Origin: a virus
Lineage: Duplodnaviria > Heunggongvirae > Uroviricota > Caudoviricetes
IMG/VR virus record: IMGVR_UViG_2724679238_000015
Location: 1 to 35,486 of that record
DNA length: 35,486 nucleotides
Reading direction: 5' to 3' (one strand)
Position numbers and translations under genes: made by a program. Shown piece after piece: positions 15,563 through 34,508 of this stretch; the stretch's first letter is position 1, and the number at the start of each line of letters is the position of its first letter. The notes below the pieces were generated by a model that made no database searches, was not told the origin of the DNA, and saw nothing but the letters and a program-made list of their open reading frames with translations.

Positions 15563-15607
15563 TCAACTCACGGTGGGCATCATGCCCGCCTGTAACGGAG
15601 AGAAAAA

Positions 15608-16405: not shown

Positions 16406-16506
16406 CGACTGACCCCGTCAGCGGGCGGCGTGCGCGGTGTTCCGGTTTGACTCCGTGACCGTTTACACCACGCACCCACCGCCCGATTTTTTCAGGAGTG
16501 AACCCC

Positions 16507-17201: not shown

Positions 17202-17203
17202 TA

Positions 17204-17527: not shown

Positions 17528-17581
17528 GTCTCAGGCTTAAAGCTGGTAATCACCATAAAAATCATTCACAGAGGTGGCGAA

Positions 17582-18531: not shown

Positions 18532-18682
18532 TACTCCCACCTGGGGAAACCTCGGTATATGGGGCGACCGCCTTCTGGATGCACTGGAAACCTGTAACAC
18601 AGATAAACGGGCCATTGAATTACTGGAGCAGCGCAGACTGCAACGACTGAACAACGAGGACAACAGCCATGCTGAAAACTGA
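18392..18682 (+). CDS. outer-membrane spanin lipoprotein (Rz1/LysC-like)
   Basis: ATG at 18392 in the +1 frame inside the i-spanin gene. Lipobox LLTGC followed by a proline-rich stretch (PVTPPPFPDTP). Confidence 0.5.
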   Translation: MNAPTLCLTLVLLTGCAGTQNAPLPAPSVRLIPQTLTIPVTPPPFPDTPTWGNLGIWGDRLLDALETCNTDKRAIELLEQRRLQRLNNEDNSHAEN

Positions 18683-19764: not shown

Positions 19765-20342
19765 ACGCAGAACTTATGAGACTGCTGAGCAATATCATCC
19801 GCACCGGGATCATCTCTGAAGTTGATGAGAAATCCTGGTGCGTGCGGGTCCTCAGCGGCGGACTGGAAACAGGCTGGTTGCGCTGGAACACCACGCGCGC
19901 GGGAGCCTTCAACGTGTGGCTGCCGCCATCAGTGGGCGAACAGGTGGCAATTGCCTGCATCGGCGGCAACCCGGAAACAGCCATGATAATTGGCAGCCTG
20001 TGGAGCGATGACATTCCGGCCCCCGGAAAAAACCTGAAAGAAATCGTGGTCAGCGCGCCGGATGGCGCGGTGTTCTGCTACGACGCGGACGCAGGCGCAC
20101 TGAGCGCCAGCGGCATGAAAACGGCCACCCTGCAGGCATCCGTCAGCGTGAAACTGGACACACCTGTCGTGGAGTGCACAAACCTTCTGAAAACAGCCGA
20201 GATTGACGTCACAAAAGGGGGAAAGATGAGCGGCAATATCACGCACAGCGGCGGCAATTTCACCTCAAACGGCATCACTGTGCATACGCATAAACACGGT
20301 GGCGTTAAAGGTGGCAGCGATTCGACAGGAGGACCGCAGTGA
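19761..20342 (+). CDS. V: baseplate spike protein (P2 gpV homolog)
   Basis: 193 aa. C-terminal GNITHSGGNFTSNGITVHTHKHGG matches the gpV spike signature. Confidence 0.85.
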   Translation: MNAELMRLLSNIIRTGIISEVDEKSWCVRVLSGGLETGWLRWNTTRAGAFNVWLPPSVGEQVAIACIGGNPETAMIIGSLWSDDIPAPGKNLKEIVVSAPDGAVFCYDADAGALSASGMKTATLQASVSVKLDTPVVECTNLLKTAEIDVTKGGKMSGNITHSGGNFTSNGITVHTHKHGGVKGGSDSTGGPQ

Positions 20343-20689
20343 CAACCCGCTACACAGGAATGAACCCGGACGGGACGGGAAACCTGAACGATATGGAGCA
20401 CCTGAAACAGTCAGTCAGGGACATCCTGACCACCCCGCTGGCCAGCCGGGTTATGCGACGGGAATATGGCAGTCTTGTCCCTGATTTGATTGACGAACCC
20501 ATGAATAACACTACGCGTCTGCAATGCATGAGCGCTGCTGTGATTGCACTGACACGATGGGAGCCACGCATTGCCCTGAACGCCATTGATGTTGTCTGGA
20601 AGGCGGGAGGCCGCGCCGGGGTGACACTATCAGGTACTGTCATTCAGACCATGCAGAATGTTGAATTAACCATCACGCTGAGGGAGTAA
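20339..20689 (+). CDS. W: baseplate wedge protein, gpW/gp25 family
   Basis: 116 aa; position and GPW/gp25-like pattern. Confidence 0.8.
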   Translation: MTTRYTGMNPDGTGNLNDMEHLKQSVRDILTTPLASRVMRREYGSLVPDLIDEPMNNTTRLQCMSAAVIALTRWEPRIALNAIDVVWKAGGRAGVTLSGTVIQTMQNVELTITLRE

Positions 20690-20692
20690 ATC

Positions 20693-21589
20693 ATGCCTGC
20701 CGTTGACCTTTCACAGTTACCGGAACCCGCCATCATCGCGGAGCCTGATTTTGAGGCAATTCTGGCTGACACAAAGGCCAGGATGATTGCGGCTTATCCC
20801 GCCGAACAGCGCGAAGCAGTCTCCGCCGCACTGGAGCTGGAATCGGAACCCCTGAACGTTATCGCCCAGACAACAGCGTTTCGTGAAATGCTGTTACGCC
20901 AGCGGGTCAACGAGGGCGCACGCGCCTGCATGTTAAGCCACAGCGCCGGGACAGACCTGGACAACCTCGCGGGTAATATGAACACAAAGCGCCTGGTTAT
21001 CACTCCGGCAACGGATACCACCGACGCGGTGATGGAAAGCGACACCTCACTGAGACTGCGGGCGCAGCGGGCGTACGACGGGCTGAGCGTTGCTGGCCCG
21101 TCAGGTGCATACGAGTATTTTGCCCGCAGTGCCAGCGGTCTGGTGCGTGATGCGCGGGCTATCAGTCCGTCTCCGGCAAATGTGACGGTTTCCATCCTGT
21201 CCACTGAAGGTGACGGCACAGCAACGGAGGCATTGCTCAATACCGTTCGCACTGCTCTGAACGCGGAGGACACCCGCCCGGTGGCCGACCGCCTGACCGT
21301 ACAGAGCGCCAGAATCGTGACATGGCGGCTGAATGCAAAACTGTACTTTTACCCCGGCCCGGAATCCGAACCTATTCTGGCCGCGGCGGAATCGTCATTC
21401 AGGAAGTGGCTGGCTGAACAGGGGCTTATCGGTCAGGACGTGGCGTTGTCCGCCATTGCTGCCGCACTTCATGTGCACGGCGTGCAACGCGTGGAGATAA
21501 TCGAACCCACCCAGAATCTGGCCATCAGCGACATACAGGCGGCGCGCTGTGAGTCATTTACCATCAGCGAAGGTGGGCGCAATGAGTAA
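20693..21589 (+). CDS. J: baseplate assembly protein (P2 gpJ homolog)
   Basis: 298 aa; follows W as in P2. Confidence 0.8.
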   Translation: MPAVDLSQLPEPAIIAEPDFEAILADTKARMIAAYPAEQREAVSAALELESEPLNVIAQTTAFREMLLRQRVNEGARACMLSHSAGTDLDNLAGNMNTKRLVITPATDTTDAVMESDTSLRLRAQRAYDGLSVAGPSGAYEYFARSASGLVRDARAISPSPANVTVSILSTEGDGTATEALLNTVRTALNAEDTRPVADRLTVQSARIVTWRLNAKLYFYPGPESEPILAAAESSFRKWLAEQGLIGQDVALSAIAAALHVHGVQRVEIIEPTQNLAISDIQAARCESFTISEGGRNE

Positions 21590-22112
21590 TTCACTGTTAC
21601 CGCCATCAGCCAGCAGTTTCATGCGTTGTGCCGAAGCTGTCGGAACGCGCATTACAGACATCCCGGTAGACCTCAACACGCTGTGGTCGCCGGACACCTG
21701 CCCGGTGCATCTGCTGCCTTATCTCGCCTGGGCGTTTTCCGTTGACCGCTGGGACCGCAACTGGCCGGAGGAAACAAAGCGCCAGGTGATTCGCGATGCG
21801 TGGCTGATACACCGACACAAGGGGACCATCAGCGCACTGCGCCGGGCCATTGAGCCGCTGGGATACCTCATTCGCGTGTCTGAGTGGTGGGAGTTCGGCG
21901 GAGAGCCGGGAACATTTACCGTTGAAGTCGGCACGCTGGACAGCGGTGTGACGGAGGAAATGTATCTGGAAATGGAGCGGTTGATTGCTGATGCCCGCCC
22001 GATCAGCCGCCACATGACAGGGCTGAATATCATTCAGGAAATCCCGGGGGATATTTTCGCAGCGGCGGCAACTTATGACGGTGAAGTTATTACCATTTAT
22101 CCAGGCGATTAA
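21582..22112 (+). CDS. I: baseplate/tail protein (P2 gpI homolog)
   Basis: ATG at 21582 overlapping the J stop; about 176 aa; position between J and H. Confidence 0.75.
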   Translation: MSNSLLPPSASSFMRCAEAVGTRITDIPVDLNTLWSPDTCPVHLLPYLAWAFSVDRWDRNWPEETKRQVIRDAWLIHRHKGTISALRRAIEPLGYLIRVSEWWEFGGEPGTFTVEVGTLDSGVTEEMYLEMERLIADARPISRHMTGLNIIQEIPGDIFAAAATYDGEVITIYPGD

Positions 22113-22114
22113 GC

Positions 22115-24343
22115 ATGAGCACCACAACACGAAAATTTAAAACCGTTATCACCGATACGGGTGCAAAAAAATTAGCACAGGCAGCCGCACCAGATGGCAA
22201 ACCCGTCCGCCTGACACATATGGCCGTGGGTGACGGCGGCGGTACTTTACCCACGCCAGACAGTAAGCAGACCCGTCTCGTGCATGAGGTGTGGCGACAT
22301 ACCGTTAATCGCGTCTTCCTGGACGCAACACATCAGAACCGCATTATTGCGGAGCTGGTTATTCCTCCAGAAACGGGCGGATTCTGGATCCGGGAAATTG
22401 GTGTGTTTGATGAGCACGGCGATTTAATCGCGGTGGGCAATACTGCCGAAAGTTACAAGCCAACCGTTGCCGAAGGGTCCGGGCGTGCGCAAACATTTCG
22501 CACCATCCTGACCGTATCCAGCACGGCCACCGTGGCGCTTACCGTGGATAACACCATGGTGATGGCCACAGTGGATTACGTGGATGACAAACTAAAAGAG
22601 CATGAACAGTCACGACGTCACCCGGATGCCTCGCTGACCGCAAAAGGCTTTACTCAGTTAAGCAGTGCGACCAACAGCACGTCTGAAGCACTGGCCGCAA
22701 CACCGAAAGCGGTAAAGGCTGCATATGACCTTGCTAGCAGGAAATATACCGCACAGGATGCCACCACAGAGCAAAAAGGCCTTGTCCAGCTCAGTAGCGC
22801 CACTAACAGCGTGTCTGAAACGATGGCGGCAACGCCGAAAGCGGTAAAGGCCGCCTATGACCTTGCTAACGGGAAATATACTGCACAGGACGCCACCACA
22901 GCGCGAAAAGGCCTTGTCCAGCTCAGTAGTGCAACCAACAGCCCGTCTGAAACGCTGGCTGCGACGCCAAAAGCTGTTAAGACGGTAATGGATGAAACGA
23001 ACAAGAAAGCGCCGCTGTCGAGTCCGGCACTCACCGGAACGCCAACCGCACCAACTGCGCCAAAGGGTACTAACAATACTCAGATAGCAAACACGGCGTT
23101 CGTTATGGCCGCGATTGCCGCACTTGTAGACTCATCACCTGACGCACTGAATACGCTGAACGAGCTGGCTGCGGCACTGGGCAATGACCCGAACTTTGCG
23201 ACTACTATGACCAACGCGCTTGCGGGCAAGCAGCCGAAAGACGCCACCCTGACGGCGCTGGCCGGGCTTGCTACTGCGGCAGACAGGTTTCCGTATTTTA
23301 CGGGGAATGACACTGCCAGCCTGGCAACTCTGACAAAAGTCGGGCGGGATATTCTGGCTCAAGCGACCGTTTCCGCCGTTATCGAATACCTCGGTTTGCA
23401 GGAAACGGTAAATCAGGCCGCTGGCGCATTGCAGAAAAACCAGAACGGCGCAGATATTCCAAACAAAGATAAATTTACGCAAACAATAGGTGCTTGCCGC
23501 TCTTTTCATAGCTCTATCAGCACAGGAGCAGGGAACTGGACAACGGCACAATTTATCGAATGGCTGGAATCTCAGTGGGCTTTCAATCATCCATACTGGC
23601 TGTGTAAATGCTCATGGTCATACGGCAATAATAAAATTATTACTGACACCGGATGTGGACTTATTCACCTTGCGGGTTGCGTTATTGAAGTTATGGGCAA
23701 TAAAGGCGCCATGACCATTCGTATAACCACACCGAGTACCTCTAGCGGTGGTGGCACCACTAATGCACAATTTATATATATTAACCACGGTTCAGAGTAT
23801 TTACCTGGCTGGCGACGTGACTACAACACGAAAAATCAGCAGGCCGCTTTTGCTTTAGGGATAACAGGAAGCACTGTCGGAAATGATAAAGCTGTTGGCT
23901 GGAACTGGAATAGCGGGGTATATAACGCAAATATTGGTGGCGCATCGACATTAATCCTCCACTTCAATATGAACGCGGGTAGCTGCCCTGCTGTACAGTT
24001 CCGCGTAAATTATAAGAACGGTGGGATTTATTATCGTTCAGCGCGTGATGGTTATGGCTTCGAGGCTGACTGGTCAGAGTTTTACACCACAACCAGAAAA
24101 CCTTCAGCAGCAGATGTTGGGGCATATACTAAAGCGGAATGTAATTCACGATTTATTACAGGTATTCGATTAGGTACAAAATCATCAGCGCAAACATGGA
24201 ATGGTCCTGGCTGGGGCGATAAATCTGGTTACGTTGTTACAGGTTCCGTTAACTCAAACAAAGATGAACTTATTGATACAACACAGGCAAGGCCAGTGCA
24301 ATATTGTATCAATGGCACCTGGTATAATGCGGGAAGTATTTAA
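22115..24343 (+). CDS. H: tail fibre protein (P2 gpH homolog) with phage tail-fibre repeats; C-terminal part lies inside an invertible segment
   Basis: 742 aa. Three tandem copies of the motif QLSSATNS.SE.(L/M)AATPKAVK. The C-terminal region after LGLQETV is the exchangeable receptor-binding part. Confidence 0.85.
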   Translation: MSTTTRKFKTVITDTGAKKLAQAAAPDGKPVRLTHMAVGDGGGTLPTPDSKQTRLVHEVWRHTVNRVFLDATHQNRIIAELVIPPETGGFWIREIGVFDEHGDLIAVGNTAESYKPTVAEGSGRAQTFRTILTVSSTATVALTVDNTMVMATVDYVDDKLKEHEQSRRHPDASLTAKGFTQLSSATNSTSEALAATPKAVKAAYDLASRKYTAQDATTEQKGLVQLSSATNSVSETMAATPKAVKAAYDLANGKYTAQDATTARKGLVQLSSATNSPSETLAATPKAVKTVMDETNKKAPLSSPALTGTPTAPTAPKGTNNTQIANTAFVMAAIAALVDSSPDALNTLNELAAALGNDPNFATTMTNALAGKQPKDATLTALAGLATAADRFPYFTGNDTASLATLTKVGRDILAQATVSAVIEYLGLQETVNQAAGALQKNQNGADIPNKDKFTQTIGACRSFHSSISTGAGNWTTAQFIEWLESQWAFNHPYWLCKCSWSYGNNKIITDTGCGLIHLAGCVIEVMGNKGAMTIRITTPSTSSGGGTTNAQFIYINHGSEYLPGWRRDYNTKNQQAAFALGITGSTVGNDKAVGWNWNSGVYNANIGGASTLILHFNMNAGSCPAVQFRVNYKNGGIYYRSARDGYGFEADWSEFYTTTRKPSAADVGAYTKAECNSRFITGIRLGTKSSAQTWNGPGWGDKSGYVVTGSVNSNKDELIDTTQARPVQYCINGTWYNAGSI
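22643..23000 (+). repeat. tandem 132-bp repeats (about 2.7 copies) inside the tail fibre gene
   Basis: Unit starts at 22643, 22775 and 22907 (AAAGGC...), each encoding a 44-aa repeat ending ...ATPKAVKAAYDLA. Confidence 0.6.
23379..23406. repeat. left crossover site of the invertible segment (gix/hix-like)
   Basis: TTATCGAATACCTCGGTTTGCAGGAAAC; 25 of 28 positions match the reverse complement of 26255..26282. Confidence 0.65.
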
Positions 24344-24345
24344 TT

Positions 24346-24879
24346 ATGATGCATTTAAAAAATATTAAAGCAGGAAACCCCAAAACCGTAGAACAATATG
24401 AATTAACACGACAATTTGGCGTTGTCTGGTTGTATTCTGATGACGGTAGAAACTGGTATGAGGAACAGAAAAACTTTCAGGAAGATACAATAAAAATTGC
24501 TTACACTGCCGATGGAATCATTGTGGCTGTAGATAAGGATGTATCGACAATTAATCCTGAAGGTTTAAGCGTTGTTGAGGTTCCTGATATTACAGCCAAT
24601 AGGCGGGTCGATATTTCTGGTAACTGGATGTTCAAAGATGGCGCAGTGATAAAGCGGGAATATACCGAAGAAGAACAGAGACAACAGGCGGAAAATGAGA
24701 AGCAAAACCTGTTACAACTCGTCAGAGATAAAACTCAGCTATGGGATTCTCAGCTACGACTTGGAATTATTTCTGCTGAGAATAAACAAAAATTGACCGA
24801 GTGGCTGCTCTACGCGCAGAAAGTAGAGTCTACGGATACCTCCGTCCTGCCAGTCACGTTCCCCGAACAACCAGAATGA
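24346..24879 (+). CDS. G: tail fibre assembly chaperone (P2 gpG homolog)
   Basis: 177 aa immediately after H. Confidence 0.8.
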   Translation: MMHLKNIKAGNPKTVEQYELTRQFGVVWLYSDDGRNWYEEQKNFQEDTIKIAYTADGIIVAVDKDVSTINPEGLSVVEVPDITANRRVDISGNWMFKDGAVIKREYTEEEQRQQAENEKQNLLQLVRDKTQLWDSQLRLGIISAENKQKLTEWLLYAQKVESTDTSVLPVTFPEQPE

Positions 24880-24882
24880 GAG

Positions 24883-24908
24883 AAGGCCCGTTCGGGCCTT
24901 ATTTTTTA
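24883..24908. terminator. bidirectional hairpin terminator between the convergent tfa and tfa' genes
   Basis: AAGGCCCG / CGGGCCTT stem followed by ATTTTTTATT on the plus strand and an A-rich run on the other side. Confidence 0.55.
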
Positions 24909-25319
24909 TTCAGGCTTTTGTGGCCATTCTGGATTTGCCGTATCCACGCGGCTGAGCAGAACGCTGTAACGCTCCCACGACTCCAGCATTTCTCGCTCAG
25001 CATCAGTAGCCATCCCCAGTTTTACGGCTCGCTCCAGTGGTAATATAAAAGATTCCGCTTCCGCCAGAAGTTTAGATTTTTGCCTCTCTGCTTGTCCTGT
25101 TAACTCTTCCTGAGTTGGCGGCTCTGGCTCTGTCACTACTGGCTGACCATATTCATTGATATTGATGGTTTTTCCTTCTGACTGCTTTTGCAAAAGATAG
25201 TTATACCATCGCTCTGATATTTCAGTAAGGTCTTCTGGCCATGAGTCATTATTCTGGTAGTCGTTTTTTAATTTATCGTCGTAAAAACCTTTCGTTGATG
25301 GGCTGTAATAAATCGTCAT
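24906..25319 (-). CDS. alternative tail fibre assembly chaperone (tfa')
   Basis: 137 aa ending ...NPEWPQKPE; convergent with G inside the invertible segment. Confidence 0.7.
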
Positions 25320-25320
25320 A

Positions 25321-26282
25321 TTAGTAACCTATAGCTGTCCAGTACATATTGCCATTACCTTCGCTGTTAAATTTCGCCCCGGTTCTGGATAGTGAGTTAA
25401 CAGCAATACTGTAGTCAAATCGCCCGTGTGCGTTAGTGATTGTTATGCTGGCACAGGCGGATGGAAAAGCCACCGGAAATGTTAATCCCGCTCCAGCGTT
25501 AGAAATATATCCCCACTGTGTAATAACTCCCGTAGAGGCATCTTTATGCCAGCCATTCGCCGCTTTGGACGCGGTATTTTTAGCCTGATAACGGGAATCA
25601 AAATTACCGTAATTAGATGGTATAACCTGACCAGTGACTCTGAGCGCATCAGACTTCAAAAACATCAGGTCTTTTGTTGTGCTTCCAGCCCTGATACGCC
25701 ATTTGAAATATTCATTGCCATTATCACCAGTTTCAAACCACAGGTATGAGTCAGTATCGGAATCTGAATCATTTTTAAATCCGATTTTCGCCCAGTCGGT
25801 GTTTCTTTCCCAAATCAGGAAGGAATCATTTATAAATTTAATACTCCCTGACATGCTACCGCCAGCTAATGCCAATACTGCGAGCTCTGCCGGGGTCGGT
25901 TTGCTTTGTGAATTATATTCTCGTGCCCACGGGGTCCATGGTTCTGATGAATATTTGCTACGTGACCACACTCTTGAGGAGTTATACACATGATAAATTT
26001 GTTTTACGCCAGCATTTTTTAACACAATTAAATTTCCGGCGTTATTCTCCGGGTAGTTTAATGCAGAGCTTGTATTAGCGTTAAGCGACTGATGGTACAG
26101 ACCAGGAGTCATATAATCATTTAAGTTTTGATTAGCACCAATAGAAATGCTCTGCCCATTAAAAATATCCTGTGAAGTAACATTTATATCACTGGTTAAC
26201 GCACGCCCGTTTACTTTGCGTGTTGCTGGCACCGCCCCTGCCGCTAACTCTACTGTTTCCTGTAAACCGAGGTTTTTGATAA
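25321..26282 (-). CDS. alternative tail fibre C-terminal cassette, start-less; would fuse to the H N-terminus after inversion
   Basis: Minus-strand reading frame continues through the right crossover site and encodes [14 protein letters not shown], matching YLGLQETVNQAAGA at the left site in H. No independent start is expected. Confidence 0.65.
26255..26282. repeat. right crossover site of the invertible segment
   Basis: Reverse complement reads TTATCAAAAACCTCGGTTTACAGGAAAC. Confidence 0.65.
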
Positions 26283-26312
26283 TGGTCGTTTCTGGCCCAC
26301 ATGGCATGATTT

Positions 26313-26936
26313 GTGCTTTTGAGCGGGAGATTCAACGTGCTGATTGGCTATGTACGCGTGTCAACAAATGACCAGAACACGGATTTGCAACGCAATGCGC
26401 TCAATAGCGCAGGATGTGAACTGATTTTTGAAGATAAAATCAGCGGAACAAAATCAGCCAGACCGGGATTGAAAAAACTGCTCAGAACGCTGTCAGAAGG
26501 CGATACGCTGGTTGTCTGGAAACTGGACAGGCTGGGCAGAAGCATGAAACACCTGATCACACTGATTGAGGAATTACGGGAAAAAGGTGTCAATTTTCGT
26601 AGTCTGACGGATTCAATTGATACCAGTACACCAATGGGGCGCTTTTTCTTCCACGTGATGGGCGCCCTGGCTGAAATGGAACGTGAATTAATTGTTGAGC
26701 GAACACTGGCCGGACTGGCAGCAGCACGCGCACAGGGGCGCATTGGTGGGCGTCGCCCGAAACTGACAAAAGAGCAACATGAGCAAATAGCAAGGCTGAT
26801 TAAAAACGGCCATGACAGAAAACAACTGGCCATAATTTACGGTATTGGTATATCGACGATTTATCGTTACCACCCCGCGGGAGAATCAACCGGAACAACA
26901 GAGAAGACCAGAGGAAACAAAAAACCGCTAATCTGA
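26313..26936 (+). CDS. serine recombinase DNA invertase (Gin/Hin/Cin/Pin family)
   Basis: LIGYVRVSTNDQNTDLQRNAL...GDTLVVWKLDRLGRS...MGRFFFHVMGALAEMERELIVERTLAGLAAARAQGRIGGRRP...AIIYGIGISTIYRY is the family signature (catalytic Ser in YVRVST). The conserved N-terminus corresponds to a GTG at 26337 in the same frame. Confidence 0.9.
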   Translation: MLLSGRFNVLIGYVRVSTNDQNTDLQRNALNSAGCELIFEDKISGTKSARPGLKKLLRTLSEGDTLVVWKLDRLGRSMKHLITLIEELREKGVNFRSLTDSIDTSTPMGRFFFHVMGALAEMERELIVERTLAGLAAARAQGRIGGRRPKLTKEQHEQIARLIKNGHDRKQLAIIYGIGISTIYRYHPAGESTGTTEKTRGNKKPLI

Positions 26937-26950
26937 TCATTAGCGGTTTT
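26921..26950. terminator. bidirectional terminator shared by the invertase gene and the convergent tail operon
   Basis: AAAA, stem CCGCTAAT / ATTAGCGG, TTTT. The invertase stop codon lies in the loop and the U stop is 12 bp away. Confidence 0.55.
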
Positions 26951-26958
26951 GCATTAAA

Positions 26959-27453
26959 TCAGAACAACCCTTTAACTGAACTGGTCGCGCTGTTAAGGGA
27001 TGCTGTCACCTTATCTTTAAGGCCGGACAGCATATCGCTGAACGATGAGGATTGCAGGCGTTCCCGCAAATCCTCATCACAGCGTTCAAGGGTCAGGGAA
27101 AACTCTATCTTTTTCGCTTTCCCGTAGCGATCCAGTTCAGAGCGGGTCGTGCTCGTTTCGGTCAGAACATACATGCCGTAAATCTGCCCGACGCCATCAA
27201 TCAGAGGCCACGGGCGTCCCGCATACGCCTGCGTGGTCAGCAGCGACAGCGACACTTCGCCGCCTGTAATCTCAGGATAAAGCACGCCAGAAAGAACGAT
27301 GCGATCATCACCTGCACCGATATACTGCCAGCTTGCTGAACGGTTAACGCGCTCGTTTTTCACATGTCGCCAGCTTTTGTTTTGCTGTAACTGCTGATGC
27401 GGCAACGTGCGCAGCTCAAAAACAAACATGCCGTAGATCATCATCATGGCCAT
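26959..27453 (-). CDS. U: tail protein (P2 gpU homolog)
   Basis: 164 aa, directly downstream of the tape measure gene on the minus strand. Confidence 0.8.
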   Translation of the reverse strand: MAMMMIYGMFVFELRTLPHQQLQQNKSWRHVKNERVNRSASWQYIGAGDDRIVLSGVLYPEITGGEVSLSLLTTQAYAGRPWPLIDGVGQIYGMYVLTETSTTRSELDRYGKAKKIEFSLTLERCDEDLRERLQSSSFSDMLSGLKDKVTASLNSATSSVKGLF

Positions 27454-27459
27454 GACTCC

Positions 27460-30297
27460 TCAATCTTTATCGTAAAAACTGCCACGCCCGGCACGGGTAC
27501 GCCGCTCCAGTTCTGCCCTGACCATTTCGCCGACCAGTTTCGCCAGTTCGCGGGGATTCTGCGTAACAACGTTATGCAGATGGACATGAATTTCACCACC
27601 AAATCCGGGGGTCGCAGCCTCCCGGCTGCGGGAAGATGCGGAAACGGGCGCAACTGGCGCACGTGCGGCCTCCACGACCGGACGGGAGCTTGCTGCAACA
27701 ACAGGGGGCAGCGCCGGAGATAACGGAGCCGGGGGCGCGGGAGTGATATTGATTGCAGGAAGAGCCTTGTTGCTCTGCGCAACCTTTCGCTCCTGCCACT
27801 CCCCACGAACAGCAAGCGCACGGGGCAAATTCTTAAAGACAATATCACCGGGGCCGATACGCTTTTTCGTCTCATCAACCAGCTTGCCTGTGTTATCTGC
27901 AATTTTGCTGAGCCTGCGCAGCGTGCCAGTGTTGTTGTCCGTGAGCGGCTTGTTGTCTTTAGGCTTATCGCCTCCGGTCCCTGTTTCCGCAGACTTCGGT
28001 GGATTGATTTTTGCCAGGTCCCCCTGAAGCAAAGCAACCTTGTCCTGAAGAATGGCCGCACGCTGCGCGTCTTCGATTTTCTTTCTCGCCCTTTCCGCTT
28101 CATCTGGAAGGACACCAAGTTTTTCCAGTATCCATGCCAGCGTATCCAGCAGCATTTTTGCAGGCGTCAGGACAAGCTGTAACGCACCGCCAAGAACGTT
28201 GCCGAATACCTCGCCAGCACTGGTGCATTTATCCAGCGTTTCCTTGCTGGATTCCATCGGTGACAGCAGCGATGTAAACCAGTTAAAGACCTGAATCACG
28301 CCATCACGAACCAGTTCGAAAACAGGGCCAAACCGTTCAAAGGTTTCGCGTAACGGGGCCAGCCGCTCCATAATCCCGCTGAACACCCCGGCAAAAAATG
28401 CCCTGATTGGGTCCCAGTATTTCCAGATGAGAACGGCAGCTCCGGCAAGCGCAGCTACGATAAGACCGACCGGGCTGAACAACGCCCCGATAGCGCCTCC
28501 CAGTAAAGAGACGGAACCCTCCACCATTCCCCACAGCGCTGGTAGGACCCTGACAGCATTCATTGATCCGGTCAGGAGGGAAAAACCAAGACGCAGTTTT
28601 GCCAGCGGGCCAGCAAGCACCCCAAGAGCCAGTGACAACGAGCCAACCGTTGCAGTCATTGCCAGCAGCGCACCGCCTGCAATCAGTAGCTGGCGCGTCA
28701 ATGCCGGATGGGCCTGCGCCAGCTCCGTCACCTTTGAGACCACCCGAGTGAGCCACTGCGTGACAGAGCGCAGCGGACCGTCAATCAGATCCGCAATGCG
28801 GATACGCAGCCCCTCCCATGCACTGCCGAGTGATTTCAGGTCGCCATCAAGGTTATTGGCCATAACCTTTGCCGTGCGTTCAGCCTCACCGCGTGCGCCT
28901 TCAAGTTCTTTTCTCAGTTTGGGCAGAGAACCGTCACCTGCCGCATCAACGAGGGCCATAAATGACGTGAAGGCCTCTTCTCCGGCTATGTCCTTAAAGA
29001 ACGATACCCGGTCAACTTCCCCGTATTTGCGGGTGGCTTTATAAAGGTCGGCCAGCACATCCTCCATCGGGCGCATTTTGCCGTTCGCATCAGAGACAGC
29101 CACACCAAGCTCTTTCAGCGCCTCTGCTGCCGCCTTTGGCGGTGATGCCAGACGAGCAAGGCTGGCACGCATTGCTGTCCCGGCATCACTCCCTCTGATA
29201 CCCATATTCGCCAGCACGCCCGCCATCGCTGCGGCCTGCTCCAGCGATATTCCCAGCTTACCCGCCACCGGACCTGCATATTTCATGGTTTCGCCCAGCG
29301 CGCGAAGGTCGGTGTTAGTACGGGTAAACGCCGCAGTAAGTGTGTCGCCGACCCGGTCCATCTGGTCAGCAGAGAGGCCGAACTGCGTCAGGATATTTGA
29401 GCCAATATCAGCCGTCTCGCCAAGGTCCATACCGCCAGCCGTTGCCATGCTCAGCACGCCGGGAAGCGCAGCCTGAATGGCTTCTGGTGTGAAGCCAGCC
29501 ATAGCAAGAAATGCCTGCCCACTGGCGGCATCACTCGCAGTAAACTGCGTTTCAGAGCCGAGCTTTAGCGCCTGCTCACGCAGCGCCTTAAACTGCGGGC
29601 TGTTCTGGTCAATTCGCGTCAGCGCCTGCACACGGGACATCTCTTTCCCGAATCCGATAGCGGGCTGCAAAAAACGCCCGGCAGCATAGCCGCCAGCCGC
29701 TGCCGCACCAGTTGCCAGCGCACCACCTGTTTTCAGTTTTCCCGCAGTTTCCTGCGCGCGTGAATACCGCTCACGCGCCCGCGTTACACGCGCAAGCGCC
29801 TGTCGTTCGCGTTCAAGCTGGTTGTTGTACTGTTCGGTGCGTCTGATGGCCTGCTGGATGGTGTTATCGCTGCCTGTCAGGGAAATACCGTGGCGTTTAA
29901 GCTCTCCGCCAAGCTCCCGCATTTTCTGAATTTCCCGCGTACGCGATTCATTCAGGCGTTCAAGCCGGGTGCTTAACTGCTGCATCAGCCTTTGTTGTTT
30001 TTCGCTGAGCACAGTACCCGTGCGTTGTAACTGATGAAGGGCGTTAAGCTGGCGTCGTGCTTTCACGATGCCAGCATCCGCTTTACTGACAGCATCGCGG
30101 GCGCGCTCAAATGAACGCGCCTGACGCTCGAGATTTTTGATCGCCCCCTGCGTTCGCTGGATGGAGTCACCAAACTGTCCCATCAGGCGGCGGGCGTTTT
30201 CGGCTGGCCGGGTCAGCCTGTCAACAGCACTGAAGGCGACCCGAATGTCAAGAGTCTTCATCGTCTGCATTCCCACTGCGAAGTGCCGCCCGCTCAC
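27460..30297 (-). CDS. T: tail tape measure protein (P2 gpT homolog)
   Basis: 945 aa, Ala/Gly-rich with long helical segments; position between E/E' and U. True start may be an internal Met. Confidence 0.85.
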   Translation of the reverse strand: MSGRHFAVGMQTMKTLDIRVAFSAVDRLTRPAENARRLMGQFGDSIQRTQGAIKNLERQARSFERARDAVSKADAGIVKARRQLNALHQLQRTGTVLSEKQQRLMQQLSTRLERLNESRTREIQKMRELGGELKRHGISLTGSDNTIQQAIRRTEQYNNQLERERQALARVTRARERYSRAQETAGKLKTGGALATGAAAAGGYAAGRFLQPAIGFGKEMSRVQALTRIDQNSPQFKALREQALKLGSETQFTASDAASGQAFLAMAGFTPEAIQAALPGVLSMATAGGMDLGETADIGSNILTQFGLSADQMDRVGDTLTAAFTRTNTDLRALGETMKYAGPVAGKLGISLEQAAAMAGVLANMGIRGSDAGTAMRASLARLASPPKAAAEALKELGVAVSDANGKMRPMEDVLADLYKATRKYGEVDRVSFFKDIAGEEAFTSFMALVDAAGDGSLPKLRKELEGARGEAERTAKVMANNLDGDLKSLGSAWEGLRIRIADLIDGPLRSVTQWLTRVVSKVTELAQAHPALTRQLLIAGGALLAMTATVGSLSLALGVLAGPLAKLRLGFSLLTGSMNAVRVLPALWGMVEGSVSLLGGAIGALFSPVGLIVAALAGAAVLIWKYWDPIRAFFAGVFSGIMERLAPLRETFERFGPVFELVRDGVIQVFNWFTSLLSPMESSKETLDKCTSAGEVFGNVLGGALQLVLTPAKMLLDTLAWILEKLGVLPDEAERARKKIEDAQRAAILQDKVALLQGDLAKINPPKSAETGTGGDKPKDNKPLTDNNTGTLRRLSKIADNTGKLVDETKKRIGPGDIVFKNLPRALAVRGEWQERKVAQSNKALPAINITPAPPAPLSPALPPVVAASSRPVVEAARAPVAPVSASSRSREAATPGFGGEIHVHLHNVVTQNPRELAKLVGEMVRAELERRTRAGRGSFYDKD

Positions 30298-30780
30298 GCC
30301 AGCTAACCACTTCGCCGGGCGTCATCATGAAGATTTCGGCGGGCGACCAGTTAAAAATAACGGCAATATCTGCCACAAAGTCTTCTATGTGCTCAAAGCA
30401 CACAACCGTGATCAGGCTTCCGTCGCCTGTTCGTTCTTCCCGCCAGAGTCCGCACCGCTCAAAAAATTTACGGCAACCACACATAACTGAATAAAGTCAC
30501 GGGATGCCATTTTTTTGATCGTCACTTCATCCAGTCGCGGTGATGTCACGCGTGACAACAGCGTAAACATGGATTCCGCTTTCAGATTCAGCACATCAGA
30601 CAGCGACAGACCACGCAGGGATCCAGCCTGCTCAATAGCCCCGGTGATCTCCACATACGTGATTTTTTCGTCGCCTCGCTCAATTGGCAGGGTAAGTTTT
30701 ACGCCGCGCTCGCTGGTTTCTTTCGCAGTATCAGCAACCACCACAGCGTTTTCAGTATCGGTATTTTTCGTCTCTTTCAT
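30248..30780 (-). CDS. E+E' frameshift product: E extended by a programmed -1 ribosomal frameshift
   Basis: Slippery heptamer UUUUUUG on the mRNA (plus-strand CAAAAAA at 30460..30466) near the end of E; the -1 frame stays open to 30248. Confidence 0.55.
30412..30780 (-). CDS. E: tail assembly chaperone (P2 gpE homolog)
   Basis: 122 aa upstream of T. Confidence 0.75.
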   Translation of the reverse strand: MKETKNTDTENAVVVADTAKETSERGVKLTLPIERGDEKITYVEITGAIEQAGSLRGLSLSDVLNLKAESMFTLLSRVTSPRLDEVTIKKMASRDFIQLCVVAVNFLSGADSGGKNEQATEA

Positions 30781-30834
30781 CAGAAAACTCCTTTCAGTCA
30801 GAGGCGACGCACTGCGCCGCCTGCATATTACTTA

Positions 30835-31347
30835 TCAGCCGAGCCCGAGCGCGGAGCGGATGCGGTCGGGTACAATGTCCTTGCCATCCTTCCGGTAGAT
30901 GTGGTTCACCAGGTCAATTTCCCACACCGGACGATCGTTAATACTCAGCTTGTAGTAGGTGTTTTTGACAGCGTAAGTGTGTGACGTGGCTTCGCCCTGT
31001 TTGGCCTCCCCCATATCAATTTCCGTCACACGCCCGCGCATCTCGATTTCATACAGGTCGCTTTCTGCATCGGTGTAGTATTCACCCGCAAAACGCAGCA
31101 GCGTGCCGTCCATTGTTCCGCCATATTTAAGGAACAGCGCACGAACGGCGCCACCCATGACAAAACTCGCATCAAGCGCGGAATCGTCCAGGCCGAGGTC
31201 GATACTCACCGCTCCCAGCATGCCACCACCACGATAGCTGTCGGTTTTACGCGTCAGTTTAGGCGGGGTGACAGACGTCACCTTACCCACTTCATTTTCA
31301 CCATCCACAAACAGCGTAAAAAAACGAAGATGTTTTGGTACGGCCAT
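30835..31347 (-). CDS. FII: tail tube protein (P2 gpFII homolog)
   Basis: 170 aa immediately downstream of the sheath gene. Confidence 0.85.
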   Translation of the reverse strand: MAVPKHLRFFTLFVDGENEVGKVTSVTPPKLTRKTDSYRGGGMLGAVSIDLGLDDSALDASFVMGGAVRALFLKYGGTMDGTLLRFAGEYYTDAESDLYEIEMRGRVTEIDMGEAKQGEATSHTYAVKNTYYKLSINDRPVWEIDLVNHIYRKDGKDIVPDRIRSALGLG

Positions 31348-32531
31348 TAAGCACCTCCAAGCACTGCAAATGCAGGACCAAAGAACTCATCAGTGAACGC
31401 CTGGTAAAGCTCCATATCTTCCAGCGGAGGAACGGGCGTATATTTATAGCGAATACGCACGCGCCCCTGTCGTAATTCTGTGGTGCTGTTATCCACGATG
31501 TCATACCAGCACGATGCGCCAATCAGTTTCCCGGCAGTAACCAGCGAATCCAGTTTTGCCCTGATGGCACTGATGACGTCCTTCACGTTCGCGGGCGTCA
31601 GTGGACTGTCGATGGTTTCAAACTGCGCTTCCGCAATTGAATCAGCCAGCACCTGTGCGGTTCGGGTATACACCTCAAAGATGTAGGCATTCGTTTCCGG
31701 TGTGCGGTTGCCCCAGAAGCGGAACCCGTTGCGGCGAATGATGGTTGTGATTTCTTTGTTGTTGAGGCTGTTGGCATCGCTGTCAGCAGCCTGCAACGAC
31801 CAGAACACATGCCTGGACATCCCCAGCACATTTTTGACCGGAACGTTGGACAGCGATTTGTGCCAGCCCTGCTCATGGTCAATGTACGCACGAAGGCCGC
31901 ACGCATAGGCTGGCGCGGGGAAAACCTCATTCTCGCCACTTTTCGGGTTGTAAGCGATGAAGTCCGGCCACAGGAGCATCAGCTCGCGTTCGTTGAATTT
32001 TTCACGGTATGCAATGGCTTCAGCCATCGTGTTACAGCCATGACAGGAGGCATACACAAACGCGCGCAGTTTACCTGCAATCACGCACAGGGATTTTGTC
32101 ACCGCCTCCGTGTCCAGCCCCGGCGCGGCCAGAATACGCGGACGGTATCCGATGCTTTCATCCTGCTCTGCAACAAGCAGCGCATACATCCCCGTATAGC
32201 TGCCGTCGGATTCAGAACCACCGATAACCAGTTGATCCTGTGTTTTTCCGTCTTCTTCTTTGTGTTCAGCCACGCGAACGACGATCACCTTTGTGCTCAC
32301 CTGGTCTGCAATGGGTTTCAGCGCACGGTACAGCGTCCCCGTTGTCCCGCATTTTCCCAGCACGTCATTGACGCGGGTCACTAATGCAGGCTTGTTCAGC
32401 GGGAACAGCTTCGCGTCCGCATCGTCCGCCGTTGCCACGATACCGATAACGCTGGAATCAACGTCGTTAATTGCTGTTACCAGGTCGGTACTTTCCGTAA
32501 CGCGGGCGCCATGAAAGCGAGTTTCACTCAT
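31347..32531 (-). CDS. FI: tail sheath protein (P2 gpFI homolog)
   Basis: Start at the Met of MSETRFHGARVTE (AAGGGG RBS), giving about 395 aa. LRAYIDHEQGWHKSLSNV and FRFWGNRT blocks match P2 FI. The ORF-track frame extends upstream to 32666. Confidence 0.85.
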   Translation of the reverse strand: MSETRFHGARVTESTDLVTAINDVDSSVIGIVATADDADAKLFPLNKPALVTRVNDVLGKCGTTGTLYRALKPIADQVSTKVIVVRVAEHKEEDGKTQDQLVIGGSESDGSYTGMYALLVAEQDESIGYRPRILAAPGLDTEAVTKSLCVIAGKLRAFVYASCHGCNTMAEAIAYREKFNERELMLLWPDFIAYNPKSGENEVFPAPAYACGLRAYIDHEQGWHKSLSNVPVKNVLGMSRHVFWSLQAADSDANSLNNKEITTIIRRNGFRFWGNRTPETNAYIFEVYTRTAQVLADSIAEAQFETIDSPLTPANVKDVISAIRAKLDSLVTAGKLIGASCWYDIVDNSTTELRQGRVRIRYKYTPVPPLEDMELYQAFTDEFFGPAFAVLGGA

Positions 32532-32686
32532 AGTTAGCCCCTTGTATCCGTTAAATGATTCGGCAACAATCATCACCCACCACGCGCGTAATCTCATCCC
32601 TGCGCCGTTCTTGCCGCCCGGCGACAACAAAAAGCAGTAACCCCGCCCGCACACACATGCGACCATGCTGCACAGGGAGGGAGCCG

Positions 32687-33787
32687 ATGATTGACACCAC
32701 CATGCAACTGTTCAACCAGAGTACTGACCCCGTGAAGATGCCTGATTTTGATATTCTCGCGGAGGGGAAAACGCTGTCCGGTGTGGCAGAACGCCTGATG
32801 AGCCTGTCACTGACCGACAACCGGGGATTTGAAGCAGACCAGCTCACCATCACGCTGGATGATGCTGATGGTCAGTTGCAGTTGCCGCCACGGGGCGCTC
32901 GCCTGACGGTTCTCATTGGCTGGAAAGGCGAACCGCTGACAGAAAAAGGCACTTACATTGTTGATGAAATTGCTCATGAAGGACCGCCCGACAGACTGAC
33001 CATTTCAGCCAGAAGCGCAGATTTTCGGGATGAATTTAACGTCAAGCGCGAAGTATCCTGGCATGATGTAACCGTTGAACGCGTGGTGTCTGCAATTGCT
33101 CACCGATACGGCCTGAAACCGCAAATCAGCGAAATGCTGATGGATATTGAAATCGACCACGCTGACCAGACCGAAGAAAGCGACATGTCCTTCCTTACAC
33201 GCATGGCGGAAATGCTGGGCGCAATCACCACGGTAAAAAGCGGTAATCTGTTATTCATCATGCCAGGTGGTGGCGTGAACGCGCAGGGAAAACCATTGCC
33301 ATCGTTTGCCATCACACGCAGCAGCGGCGATCGCCATCAGTTTCGCATTGCTGACCGCGAGGCGTATACAGGTGTACGCGCCTACTGGCTTGATCTTAAT
33401 TACGGGAAAAAGAAAAAAGTCAGCGTGAAACGCCGCAAACCGAAAAAGGAGAAAAGCAGCAGCCGGGAAGGCGACTATATGGCAGGCGCGGAAGGCAACG
33501 TGTTTGTGTTACGCAAGACTTATCAGAACGAGCAGGCAGCAAGACGCGCAGCGGCGGCAAAGTGGCAGCAGCTACAACGCGGAGCCGCATCATTCTCCAT
33601 CACGCTGGCACGTGGTCGCGCTGAACTCTACCCCGAAATGCATGGCACGGTGGCAGGCTTTAAAAGCGACATCGACAATCAGGACTGGATTATTGCAAAA
33701 GTTGAGCATTCTATTGATAACAGTGGTTTTACCACACAGCTTGAGCTTGAAGCAAAAATCCCGGAATGGATAGCAGAAACAGAGTGA
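32687..33787 (+). CDS. D: tail protein D (P2 gpD homolog)
   Basis: ATG at 32687 with GGGAGGG RBS; about 366 aa. Transcribed divergently from the FI-U block. Confidence 0.8.
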   Translation: MIDTTMQLFNQSTDPVKMPDFDILAEGKTLSGVAERLMSLSLTDNRGFEADQLTITLDDADGQLQLPPRGARLTVLIGWKGEPLTEKGTYIVDEIAHEGPPDRLTISARSADFRDEFNVKREVSWHDVTVERVVSAIAHRYGLKPQISEMLMDIEIDHADQTEESDMSFLTRMAEMLGAITTVKSGNLLFIMPGGGVNAQGKPLPSFAITRSSGDRHQFRIADREAYTGVRAYWLDLNYGKKKKVSVKRRKPKKEKSSSREGDYMAGAEGNVFVLRKTYQNEQAARRAAAAKWQQLQRGAASFSITLARGRAELYPEMHGTVAGFKSDIDNQDWIIAKVEHSIDNSGFTTQLELEAKIPEWIAETE

Positions 33788-33828
33788 GCAACTTAGAATA
33801 GCGGCAGCACTACGTTAAGGGGGTTGCC

Positions 33829-34089
33829 ATGTTCCGTTGTCCGCTTTGTGGCGCATCTGCCCGTATCCGCACCAGTCGTTCGGAAAATGATTCAGATACC
33901 GTACGGAAAAAATATTACCAGTGTAACAACCTGGAATGCGGCGTATGCTTCTCAACACTGGAGGCTTTCCATAAATTCACATCGAAACACGCCCCCGGCG
34001 TTCACTCTTCAGAGGGCATCCCGTGGAATGAGCTACCAGCTTCACACAGGGGAAACAACCAGATGAGTTTGCCCTTACCTCAGAATTAA
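33829..34089 (+). CDS. ogr: late gene transcription activator, zinc-finger Ogr/Delta family
   Basis: MFRCPLCGASARIRTSR...YYQCNNLECGVCFSTLEAF matches P2 Ogr (MFHCPLCQHAAHARTSR...YHQCQNVNCSATF) with the four-Cys zinc finger. Confidence 0.85.
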   Translation: MFRCPLCGASARIRTSRSENDSDTVRKKYYQCNNLECGVCFSTLEAFHKFTSKHAPGVHSSEGIPWNELPASHRGNNQMSLPLPQN

Positions 34090-34149
34090 CAGGCTGAATT
34101 GCCGGAGTAACAAAAAAGCGATAAATTACGCGCGGGTGCCTTTCGGCTG

Positions 34150-34362
34150 ATGGCTGGAGGGAATACCCGAAGGCCAGATGTGGAAAGGCCCCGGAAAACA
34201 TTTCTGTTTAACCGAGGCCCTGACCATCTAACCTTAGCAAGTGATAGGTTAGCGCCTCCCCAAAAAAGGAGCAAGCGCTATGTCGCAAAAATCGCTTATG
34301 GCCATCACGTTCTGCGTGACGGTAATCCTCATCATCTGGATGCTGCACGGTTCGCTGTGTGA
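34150..34362 (+). CDS. mok-like overlapping reading frame of the hok locus (tentative)
   Basis: 70-aa ORF in another frame overlapping the hok start, as mok does in hok/sok loci. Called by position only. Confidence 0.3.
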   Translation: MAGGNTRRPDVERPRKTFLFNRGPDHLTLASDRLAPPQKRSKRYVAKIAYGHHVLRDGNPHHLDAARFAV

Positions 34363-34420
34363 AATACGGATGAGCTTCTGGGGAGCGGAGTTTGCGGCGT
34401 TCTTACAGTGTAAGCAGTAA
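34280..34420 (+). CDS. hok: Hok/Gef-family small membrane toxin (type I toxin-antitoxin)
   Basis: 46 aa: MSQKSLMAITFCVTVILIIWMLHGSLCEIRMSFWGAEFAAFLQCKQ. N-terminal TM followed by the SLCEIR...E.AAF signature of the Hok/Gef family. Followed by a GC-rich fold-back hairpin. Confidence 0.65.
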   Translation: MSQKSLMAITFCVTVILIIWMLHGSLCEIRMSFWGAEFAAFLQCKQ

Positions 34421-34508
34421 GGAAACCGCGACGGGGGAGCAATCCCCCGTCAATCGGTTGCTAAGGCTGGCCGAAGTGGCACCCTATCCCATGGACACAA
34501 ACAAGAAA

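What the first reader, a model, noticed from the sequence alone, without database searches (positions are those of the whole stretch)
26921..32686. Tail sheath-to-U block is inverted relative to canonical P2 order
In P2 the late genes FI-FII-E-E'-T-U-D-ogr are all transcribed in the same direction after H and G. Here FI, FII, E/E', T and U lie on the minus strand, converging on the invertase gene across a shared bidirectional terminator (26921..26950), while D and ogr are on the plus strand and diverge from FI across a 155-bp intergenic region (32532..32686). Intact RBSs, overlapping start/stop codons and the purpose-built terminator argue for a functional, evolved arrangement rather than misassembly. 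It implies that D has its own late promoter and that the tail operon promoter is divergent from it.
Basis: partly seen in the sequence, partly recalled or inferred. Interest (0 to 1): 0.5.

Follow-up and report, generated by a model that had tools for sequence, protein, structure and literature searches.

The report
Lineage-typical inverted P2-like tail operon
The tail sheath-to-U gene block really is flipped relative to phage P2, but the flip is the normal, long-fixed gene order of a large and common branch of P2-like phages (the P88 and SEN4 groups), so it is ordinary.

Summary
U, T, E/E', FII and FI lie on the minus strand (26959-32531). A hairpin at 26921-26950 separates them from the invertase gene, and a 155-bp gap (32532-32686) separates them from D and ogr on the plus strand.

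It is neither a misassembly nor a peculiarity of this genome. The window is a P88-like (Xuanwuvirus) prophage. The same order is found in P88, P884B11, Shae_phiSM and SEN4. The FI|D junction occurs in 1358 of 5426 complete E. coli genomes. All 106 classifiable related loci whose D protein is at least about 59% identical to the window's share the order, and they form one clade. P2, Fels-2 and six more distant loci keep the canonical order.

What the comparison adds is the FI|D gap. It holds one conserved Ogr-type dyad (TGT-N12-ACA; TCT-N12-ACA here, 32609-32626). Conserved -10-like hexamers sit 44-49 bp from its centre on both sides. This predicts two divergent late promoters about 111 bp apart that share one activator site, as P2's P/O promoter pair is annotated. 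That part is inferred from sequence only.

Interest is low.

The parts
26337..26936 (+). Serine DNA invertase (Gin/Cin/Pin/Hin type). It converges on the tail operon and serves the neighbouring invertible tail-fibre segment, not the FI-U block.
   Evidence: Pfam Resolvase 1.9e-51 plus HTH_7 2.8e-13. Crossover-type inverted repeats lie at 23376-23432 and 26229-26285.
26921..26950 (-). Hairpin terminator at the end of the U-T-E-FII-FI operon. It is shared head-to-head with the 3' end of the invertase gene.
   Evidence: 12-bp stem, -15.6 kcal/mol, z-score -3.3 to -3.8, with a U6GU3 tail on the minus strand. The same hairpin is conserved in P88-like relatives, and other hairpins follow U in lineages lacking the invertase.
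26959..27453 (-). gpU tail protein
   Evidence: Pfam Phage_P2_GpU 5.8e-39.
27460..30297 (-). gpT tape measure protein. The exact start codon is uncertain.
   Evidence: Pfam PhageMin_Tail 4.9e-59.
30248..30780 (-). gpE (30412-30780) and the E' extension reached by a -1 frameshift. The slippery heptamer TTTTTTG is at 30460-30466.
   Evidence: ORFs, sequence, tblastn matches to the E gene of relatives and the split E/E' annotation in P88.
30835..31347 (-). gpFII tail tube
   Evidence: Pfam Phage_tube 1.6e-45.
31347..32531 (-). gpFI tail sheath
   Evidence: Pfam Phage_sheath_1, Gp18_domIII_N and Phage_sheath_1C.
32569..32574 (-). Predicted -10 hexamer (GATGAT) of the leftward FI late promoter. The predicted transcription start is near 32562.
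   Evidence: The plus-strand pattern AT..TC is the most conserved element on the FI side, at 44-49 bp from the dyad centre in 29 diverse lineages. Inferred; no start site has been mapped.
32609..32626 (.). Ogr-type activator dyad TCT-N12-ACA (consensus TGT-N12-ACA), centre 32617.5, apparently shared by the FI and D promoters.
   Evidence: A single dyad sits at a fixed position, 80-86 bp from the FI ATG, in 32 of 33 representative lineages, while the N12 spacer varies freely. The extended motif TCT-N12-ACAACAAAA occurs only here and in the window's P|O gap.
32661..32666 (+). Predicted -10 hexamer (GACCAT) of the rightward D(-ogr) late promoter. The predicted transcription start is near 32673.
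   Evidence: A conserved xAxxAT hexamer lies 44-49 bp to the right of the dyad centre, preceded by a conserved CGCGCGCG block. Inferred.
32687..33787 (+). gpD (baseplate hub / late control D)
   Evidence: Pfam Phage_GPD 8.2e-18. 97% identical to P88 gpD.
33794..33799 (+). Candidate Ogr-independent -10 (TAGAAT) of ogr's own promoter.
   Evidence: A strong -10-like hexamer (TAGAAT, TAAAAT, CATAAT, TATACT or TATAAT) lies about 30 nt upstream of the ogr ATG in 19 diverse relatives. P2 has an annotated ogr promoter in the equivalent place.
33829..34089 (+). ogr-type zinc-finger late activator
   Evidence: Pfam Ogr_Delta 2.4e-14.

Best explanation
The window is a P88-like (Xuanwuvirus) P2-family prophage.

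In an ancestor of a large branch of Peduoviridae, a single inversion flipped the segment that runs from the PF activator site through FI, FII, E/E', T and U. That branch includes Xuanwuvirus, Senquatrovirus and many Enterobacterales prophages. The inversion became fixed, and every sampled member of the branch has it. It is not an invertase-driven switch and not an assembly error.

The inversion uncoupled D from the F operon. Expression is now organised around the 155-bp FI|D gap. One palindromic Ogr-binding dyad (32609-32626) sits about 56 bp upstream of a leftward promoter for FI-FII-E/E'-T-U, which terminates at the 26921-26950 hairpin. The same dyad sits about 56 bp upstream of a mirror-image rightward promoter for D, with probable read-through into ogr. 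P2's divergent P and O late promoters are annotated with the same design.

Shown here: the gene order, its distribution, and the conserved sequence elements. Inferred: the transcription start sites, Ogr binding, and sharing of the site.
For: Gene identities and strands.

Distribution:
- One-piece colinear megablast matches (invertase through ogr, 90-93% identity) to P88, P884B11, Shae_phiSM and others, with matching annotation.
- The first 25 kb of the window is 87% covered at 95.5% identity by phage 520873 and 76% at 93% by P88.
- The FI|D junction is in 1358 of 5426 complete E. coli genomes and the invertase|U junction in 621.
- 34 of 34 informative genome loci and 74 of 74 viral contigs with D at least about 59% identical are inverted. 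All 6 viral contigs at 57% or below, plus P2 and Fels-2, are canonical.
- In a neighbour-joining tree of D, the 102 distinct inverted-type sequences form one clade that excludes all 8 canonical ones.
- SEN4, a phage with contractile tails seen by electron microscopy, has the same order (PMC5261728). P88 is an induced phage that lyses hosts (abstract of PMC5285337).

Promoter model:
- A single TGT-N12-ACA dyad lies 80-86 bp from the FI ATG across lineages, with a variable spacer.
- Conserved -10-like hexamers lie 44-49 bp from the dyad centre on both sides.
- In P2 the PF site-to-FI-ATG distance is 83 bp. P2's P and O start sites are 111 bp apart around one annotated activator site.
- The TGT-N12-ACA consensus comes from PMC3931495.
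- The scan found no sigma-70 consensus promoter in the gap.
Against: - No transcript or binding data exist for this lineage, so the start sites, Ogr dependence and site sharing are inferred from sequence conservation only.
- The window's dyad is a 5/6 match (TCT, not TGT).
- The -10 candidates are weak (GATGAT, GACCAT), as expected for activator-dependent promoters but also easy to find by chance in a single sequence.
- Conservation on the D side is blurred by 1-3 nt indels in the gap-free stack.
- Sampling of relatives was ranked by similarity to the query, so a canonical-order member inside the clade could have been missed.
- The neighbour-joining tree has no support values.
Confidence: 0.85

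Rival explanations
1. Assembly artefact: the FI-U block was flipped by a misjoin at the two junctions.
For: None found. Only the a priori expectation from P2 gene order.
Against: Both junctions are reproduced colinearly in isolated phage genomes. They also appear in 1358 (FI|D) and 621 (invertase|U) complete E. coli genomes and in more than 100 independent loci. Regulatory elements in the FI|D gap are conserved.
Confidence: 0.01
2. A programmed invertible segment: the adjacent serine invertase flips FI-U on and off, or between two orientations, as it does the tail-fibre segment.
For: An invertase gene abuts one end of the block.
Against: - No inverted repeats flank the block.
- The best match to the phage's own 26-bp crossover sites in either junction has 9 to 13 mismatches.
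- Most relatives with the same order have no invertase next to U.
- Fels-2 has the invertase but the canonical order.
- No clade member was seen in the other orientation (0 of 106).
Confidence: 0.02
3. The order is lineage-typical, but the dyad activates only the FI promoter. D is transcribed from a separate promoter, either Ogr-independent or using an unrecognised second site, or mainly with different timing.
For: The start sites are unmapped. The D-side -10 is weak (GACCAT). D-side conservation is lower in the gap-free stack. ogr just downstream appears to have its own -10.
Against: Only one dyad is conserved in the gap. The D-side hexamer sits at the mirror-image distance (+44 to +49) and is preceded by a conserved CGCGCGCG block that also precedes the predicted P promoter of this phage and P2's PP. 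No sigma-70 consensus promoter was found in the gap. D is a structural tail gene that should be expressed late with the rest.
Confidence: 0.2
4. A recent inversion specific to this strain, and therefore a noteworthy rearrangement. This is the novelty the reader implied.
For: It differs from P2, 186-type and Fels-2 order.
Against: The order is shared down to about 60% D identity, across at least two ICTV genera and about 15 host genera, and is monophyletic.
Confidence: 0.01

Closest known systems
Escherichia phage P88 and other Xuanwuvirus (P884B11, Shae_phiSM, phages 520873, 500465-2 and 503458, Chuche)
   Same: Identical gene order and strands: invertase(+) | U T E FII FI (-) | D ogr (+). Identity is 90-93% across the region. 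The same terminator hairpin and the same FI|D gap are present.
   Different: Only mosaic differences, in the tail-fibre ends and invertible segment, the immunity region, the cargo after ogr, and IS100 insertions in some relatives.
Salmonella phage SEN4 (Senquatrovirus) and Klebsiella, Serratia, Pantoea, Erwinia and Symbiopectobacterium prophages of the same clade
   Same: The same inverted FI-U block and divergent FI|D gap, with a perfect TGT-N12-ACA dyad at the same position.
   Different: D is only 60-78% identical. Most have no invertase next to U, and their terminators differ.
Phage P2 F operon (PF: FI-FII-E-E'-T-U-D, then ogr) and Fels-2
   Same: The same gene set, the same E/E' frameshift heptamer, and the same spacing from activator site to FI ATG (83 bp in P2, 86.5 bp here). 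ogr follows D.
   Different: In P2 and Fels-2 all genes are co-directional, U overlaps D, and one promoter serves them all. Here FI-U is inverted and D is a separate transcription unit.
P2 divergent late promoters PP and PO
   Same: Two back-to-back late promoters whose start sites are 111 bp apart around one annotated activator-binding site. The FI|D gap predicts starts about 111 bp apart around one dyad. The window's own P|O gap carries the same extended motif.
   Different: The P/O design is annotated in the P2 RefSeq record with mapped start sites. The FI|D version is only predicted here.

Membership tests
Peduoviridae genus Xuanwuvirus (P88-like phages) | High nucleotide similarity across the genome to P88-type phages (genus-level criterion of about 70%) | tested here: met
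   Window 1-25000 is 87% covered at 95.5% identity by phage 520873 and 76% at 93.1% by P88. Window 24300-34300 is 80% covered at 91.5% by P88. This is an approximate product of coverage and identity, not a formal VIRIDIC value.
Peduoviridae genus Xuanwuvirus (P88-like phages) | Gene order H G | inverted fibre cassette | invertase | U T E FII FI (opposite strand) | D ogr | tested here: met
   Annotation of NC_026014 and OR565851 compared with the window ORFs.
Canonical P2 F operon | FI, FII, E/E', T, U and D co-directional in one operon, with U and D abutting | tested here: not met
   FI-U lie on the minus strand and D on the plus strand, separated by a 155-bp divergent gap. P2 and Fels-2 are co-directional.
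Canonical P2 F operon | Orthologous gene content, including the E/E' -1 frameshift | tested here: met
   Pfam hits for FI, FII, T, U and D. TTTTTTG lies about 46 nt before the E stop codon, with an overlapping -1 frame ORF.
P2-type Ogr/Delta/B-dependent late promoter | TGT-N12-ACA dyad upstream of the promoter | tested here: met
   The window has TCT-N12-ACA (5/6) at 32609-32626. Most relatives have a 6/6 match at the same position. The consensus is taken from PMC3931495.
P2-type Ogr/Delta/B-dependent late promoter | Dyad centred near -55 from the transcription start | tested here: inconclusive
   Conserved -10-like hexamers 44-49 bp from the dyad centre on both sides predict starts at about +/-56. 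No start site has been mapped.
P2-type Ogr/Delta/B-dependent late promoter | Cognate Ogr/Delta zinc-finger activator encoded by the phage | tested here: met
   Pfam Ogr_Delta 2.4e-14 for 33829-34089.
P2-type Ogr/Delta/B-dependent late promoter | Transcription requires the activator and its contact with the RNA polymerase alpha subunit | not testable with these tools
   Needs reporter assays, in vitro transcription or a DNA-binding footprint.
Din-family (Gin/Cin/Pin/Hin) invertible segment, considered for the FI-U block | Segment bounded by inverted 26-bp crossover sites | tested here: not met
   No inverted repeat flanks 26950-32600. The best match to a crossover site at the junctions has 9 to 13 mismatches out of 26. 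The true sites, at 23379-23404 and 26257-26282, bound the fibre cassette only.
Din-family (Gin/Cin/Pin/Hin) invertible segment, considered for the FI-U block | Both orientations found among closely related genomes | tested here: not met
   All 106 classifiable loci in the clade have one orientation.

The most novel reading that the evidence does not exclude
The ancestral inversion carried the palindromic PF activator site along with FI and set it down in front of D. One Ogr dyad now drives two mirror-image late promoters, with start sites about 111 bp apart. This creates a new late operon (D, reading into ogr) and with it a direct positive-feedback loop on the activator. It would be a worked example of how a symmetric activator site lets an operon survive being split by an inversion. 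None of the four papers I opened mentions the inversion or this promoter design for the P88/SEN4 lineage; this was not a full literature search.
Probability: 0.55. Interest if true: 0.3.

Novelty: already known. Interest (0 to 1): 0.15.

Why it matters
It matters little as a discovery. The gene order is the standard layout of a named, widespread phage lineage and is already visible in annotated public genomes.

It is useful as a caution for annotation. 'P2 order' is not universal within Peduoviridae, so synteny-based prophage callers should not flag this layout as a rearrangement or misassembly.

The one modestly interesting by-product is the predicted bidirectional late promoter built around a single Ogr-type dyad. 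It is cheaply testable. It would explain how D, and late read-through into ogr, stayed under late control after being cut off from the F operon.

Tried and rejected
1. Invertase-mediated origin or switching. I scanned for inverted repeats around the block and for pseudo-crossover sites at both junctions. Nothing was found, and most relatives lack the invertase there.

2. Strict regular-expression search for TGT-N12-ACA in the window. It gave five hits, all outside the two divergent intergenic gaps, and missed the real site because the window carries the TCT variant. A 6-base motif is not statistically informative in 35 kb, so the site is supported by cross-lineage conservation, not by enrichment. 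The two-hit result for the extended motif is partly circular, because the pattern was derived from those two sites.

3. The short word GACAACAAA alone is not enriched (12 hits against 11.2 expected).

4. The sigma-70 consensus scan found no promoter in the FI|D gap.

5. Rfam at gathering thresholds found nothing anywhere in the window, so no Sok-like RNA was confirmed for the hok-like locus.

6. Literature searches on P88, SEN4, Xuanwuvirus and 'opposite orientation' found no paper that discusses the inversion. One search failed on a term that was too short.

7. The P|O gap at first looked incompatible with a dyad at -55 for O. This was resolved by moving the O start codon to 13650.
Full report
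**1. Observation**

The window is a complete P2-like prophage. It runs from the integrase gene at 1-1002 through ogr and some cargo genes.

In the region of the finding, Pfam and the ORF table give the following:
- H 22115-24343 (+) and G 24346-24879 (+).
- An inverted second assembly gene (24906-25319, -) and an alternative fibre C-terminus (25321-26307, -).
- A serine invertase (26337-26936, +).
- U 26959-27453, T 27460-30297, E 30412-30780, FII 30835-31347 and FI 31347-32531, all on the minus strand.
- D 32687-33787 and ogr 33829-34089, on the plus strand.

E has no Pfam hit. It matches the E gene of relatives by tblastn and carries the P2 slippery heptamer TTTTTTG at 30460-30466, with an overlapping -1 frame ORF.

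The FI|D gap is exactly 32532-32686.

The hairpin at 26921-26950 is real, with a 12-bp stem and -15.6 kcal/mol. It is a convincing intrinsic terminator on the minus strand, where a U6GU3 tail follows. It is weaker on the plus strand, where only four U follow. The invertase stop codon lies in its loop.

P2 and Fels-2 have FI through ogr co-directional, and Fels-2 also has an invertase upstream of FI. The description 'inverted relative to P2' is therefore correct.

**2. What it is**

A 10-kb query across the region gave single-piece, colinear matches from the invertase to ogr at 90-93% identity. The matches were to Escherichia phage P88, Xuanwuvirus P884B11, Citrobacter phage Shae_phiSM, phages 520873, 500465-2 and 503458, Chuche and PhiR44_2. 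The deposited annotations show the same strands.

The first 25 kb of the window is 87% covered at 95.5% identity by phage 520873, and 76% at 93% by P88. The window is therefore a member of the P88-like genus Xuanwuvirus.

The FI|D junction (window 32200-33000) is present at 80% coverage or more in 1358 of 5426 complete E. coli genomes. The invertase|U junction is present in 621.

A scan of one genome per species with the D protein returned 36 loci from about 15 Enterobacterales genera. These include Salmonella, Serratia, Klebsiella, Enterobacter, Pantoea, Erwinia, Pectobacterium, Brenneria, Kosakonia and Symbiopectobacterium. All 34 informative loci read U- T- E- FII- FI- | D+ ogr+.

A scan of viral contigs with a D alignment that included P2 and Fels-2 returned 80 loci. 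All 74 loci with D at least about 59% identical to the window are inverted. All 6 loci at 57% or below are canonical.

Salmonella phage SEN4 belongs to a different genus (Senquatrovirus) and its D is 63% identical. It has the same order.

In a neighbour-joining tree of D, the 102 distinct inverted-type sequences form one clade that excludes all 8 canonical ones.

The inversion is therefore old, fixed, probably of single origin, and typical of a large branch of P2-like phages. Members of the branch are viable phages. P88 is an induced phage that lyses hosts (abstract of PMC5285337), and SEN4 virions have contractile tails (PMC5261728).

**3. It is not an invertase switch or an artefact**

No inverted repeats flank the block. 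The phage's own 26-bp crossover sites, at 23379-23404 and 26257-26282, bound only the fibre cassette. The best look-alikes at the block's junctions have 9 to 13 mismatches out of 26.

Most relatives with the same order have no invertase beside U. No clade member shows the other orientation.

**4. How it most likely works**

D faces away from FI, so it must be transcribed from the 155-bp gap. I compared the gap across lineages in an alignment and then in a gap-free stack of 29 diverse lineages anchored on the dyad. Three things stand out.

- *One dyad.* There is a single TGT-N12-ACA dyad, with a freely varying spacer. It sits 80-86 bp from the FI ATG and 66-83 bp from the D ATG in most lineages. 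Here it reads TCTTGCCGCCCGGCGACA (32609-32626), with its centre at 32617.5.
- *The FI side.* The most conserved element on the FI side is the plus-strand pattern AT..TC at 44-49 bp from the centre. On the FI strand this reads GAxxAT, a -10-like hexamer. In the window it is GATGAT at 32574 to 32569. A conserved CACG lies at 20-23 bp.
- *The D side.* A conserved xAxxAT hexamer lies at the mirror position, +44 to +49. In the window it is GACCAT at 32661-32666. A conserved CGCGCGCG block precedes it.

If each hexamer is placed at -12 to -7, the predicted start sites are near 32562 (minus strand) and 32673 (plus strand). Each is about 56 bp from the dyad centre, and they are about 111 bp apart.

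TGT-N12-ACA is the published consensus for Ogr-dependent P2 late promoters (PMC3931495). The P2 RefSeq record annotates the divergent P and O promoters with start sites 111 bp apart (3016 and 3127) around one activator-binding feature (3057-3087). It places the PF site 83 bp from the FI ATG, against 86.5 bp here.

The window's own P|O gap carries the same extended motif, TCT-N12-ACAACAAAA at 13560-13583. This is the only other occurrence in the window. Its distances to the two start codons are comparable once O is taken to start at 13650.

The simplest history is one inversion with two breakpoints. One breakpoint lay just upstream of the PF activator site and the other at the U/D boundary. The inversion would have set the palindromic site down in front of D, which then needed only a -10 element at the right distance.

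ogr lies 41 nt after D. It probably receives late read-through, as it does from PF in P2. It also has a conserved -10 of its own, TAGAAT at 33794-33799, which avoids a bootstrapping problem.

All of this is inference from conservation. No transcript or binding data were available.

**5. Comparison with what is known, and novelty**

The layout is the same as in P88-type and SEN4-type phages, whose genomes are public and annotated. It differs from P2, 186-type and Fels-2 phages only in the orientation of FI-U and in D being a separate unit.

I found no paper that comments on the inversion. The arrangement itself is nonetheless already on record, so I rate it 'already known'.

The predicted shared-dyad bidirectional late promoter is a small, testable addition.

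**6. Verdict**

The arrangement is functional and evolved, and D has its own divergent late promoter. It is not unusual.
- Interest is low (0.15).

Noticed in passing
window 34150-34421 (+): A Hok/Gef-type toxin ORF at 34281-34421 (MSQKSLMAITFCVTVILIIWMLHGSLCEIRMSF...) carries the SLCEIR motif. An overlapping mok-like ORF lies upstream at 34150-34362. This is a cargo gene after ogr, and P88 annotates a 'MokW-like host killing' gene at the same place. Pfam found nothing for the mok-like frame, and Rfam found no Sok RNA at gathering score.
   Followed up: partly
window 13496-13650: The P|O gap has the same extended dyad as the FI|D gap, TCT-N12-ACAACAAAA at 13560-13583. The mechanical O ORF start at 13617 is probably wrong. 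The ATG at 13650 (MANEKKTSRKKFRV...) follows a Shine-Dalgarno sequence AGAGGGG, aligns with the P2 gpO N-terminus, and restores a -55 geometry.
   Followed up: partly
window 23376-26307: An invertible tail-fibre cassette. Gix/cix-like crossover sites lie at 23379-23404 (inside H) and 26257-26282. They bracket the current H C-terminus plus G, and an inverted alternative H C-terminus (25321-26307) plus a second assembly gene (24906-25319). A strong hairpin at 24883-24900 lies between the two assembly genes.
   Followed up: partly
window 33794-33799: A -10-like hexamer (TAGAAT) lies about 30 nt upstream of ogr. It is conserved as TAGAAT, TAAAAT, CATAAT, TATACT or TATAAT across relatives with 60-97% D identity, and has no consistent -35. 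It is probably ogr's own Ogr-independent promoter, as in P2.
   Followed up: partly
L005 (Vagococcus sp. WN89Y contig) and L039 (Planococcaceae MAG contig): Assemblies labelled as Firmicutes carry this enterobacterial prophage region with D 94-96% identical to the window's. This looks like contamination or mis-binning in those records.
   Followed up: no
L008, L009 and L012 (Symbiopectobacterium purcellii); L023, L024 and L040 (Symbiopectobacterium sp. RP): Single Symbiopectobacterium genomes hold several copies of this prophage type. Some copies have truncated FI, T or D, which suggests decaying prophages in insect symbionts.
   Followed up: no
Phage 520873 (NC_049344) and phage 503458 (NC_049341), matches H4 and H13: These close relatives carry an IS100 (IS21-family) insertion within the matched invertase-to-ogr region. 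The alignment is split into pieces there.
   Followed up: no
window 18669-20342: The genes from O through G (13650-24879) overlap or abut, with no intergenic gap where P2 has its separate PV promoter between S and V. This lineage may run head, lysis, baseplate and fibre genes as one long late operon, or may use an internal promoter.
   Followed up: no
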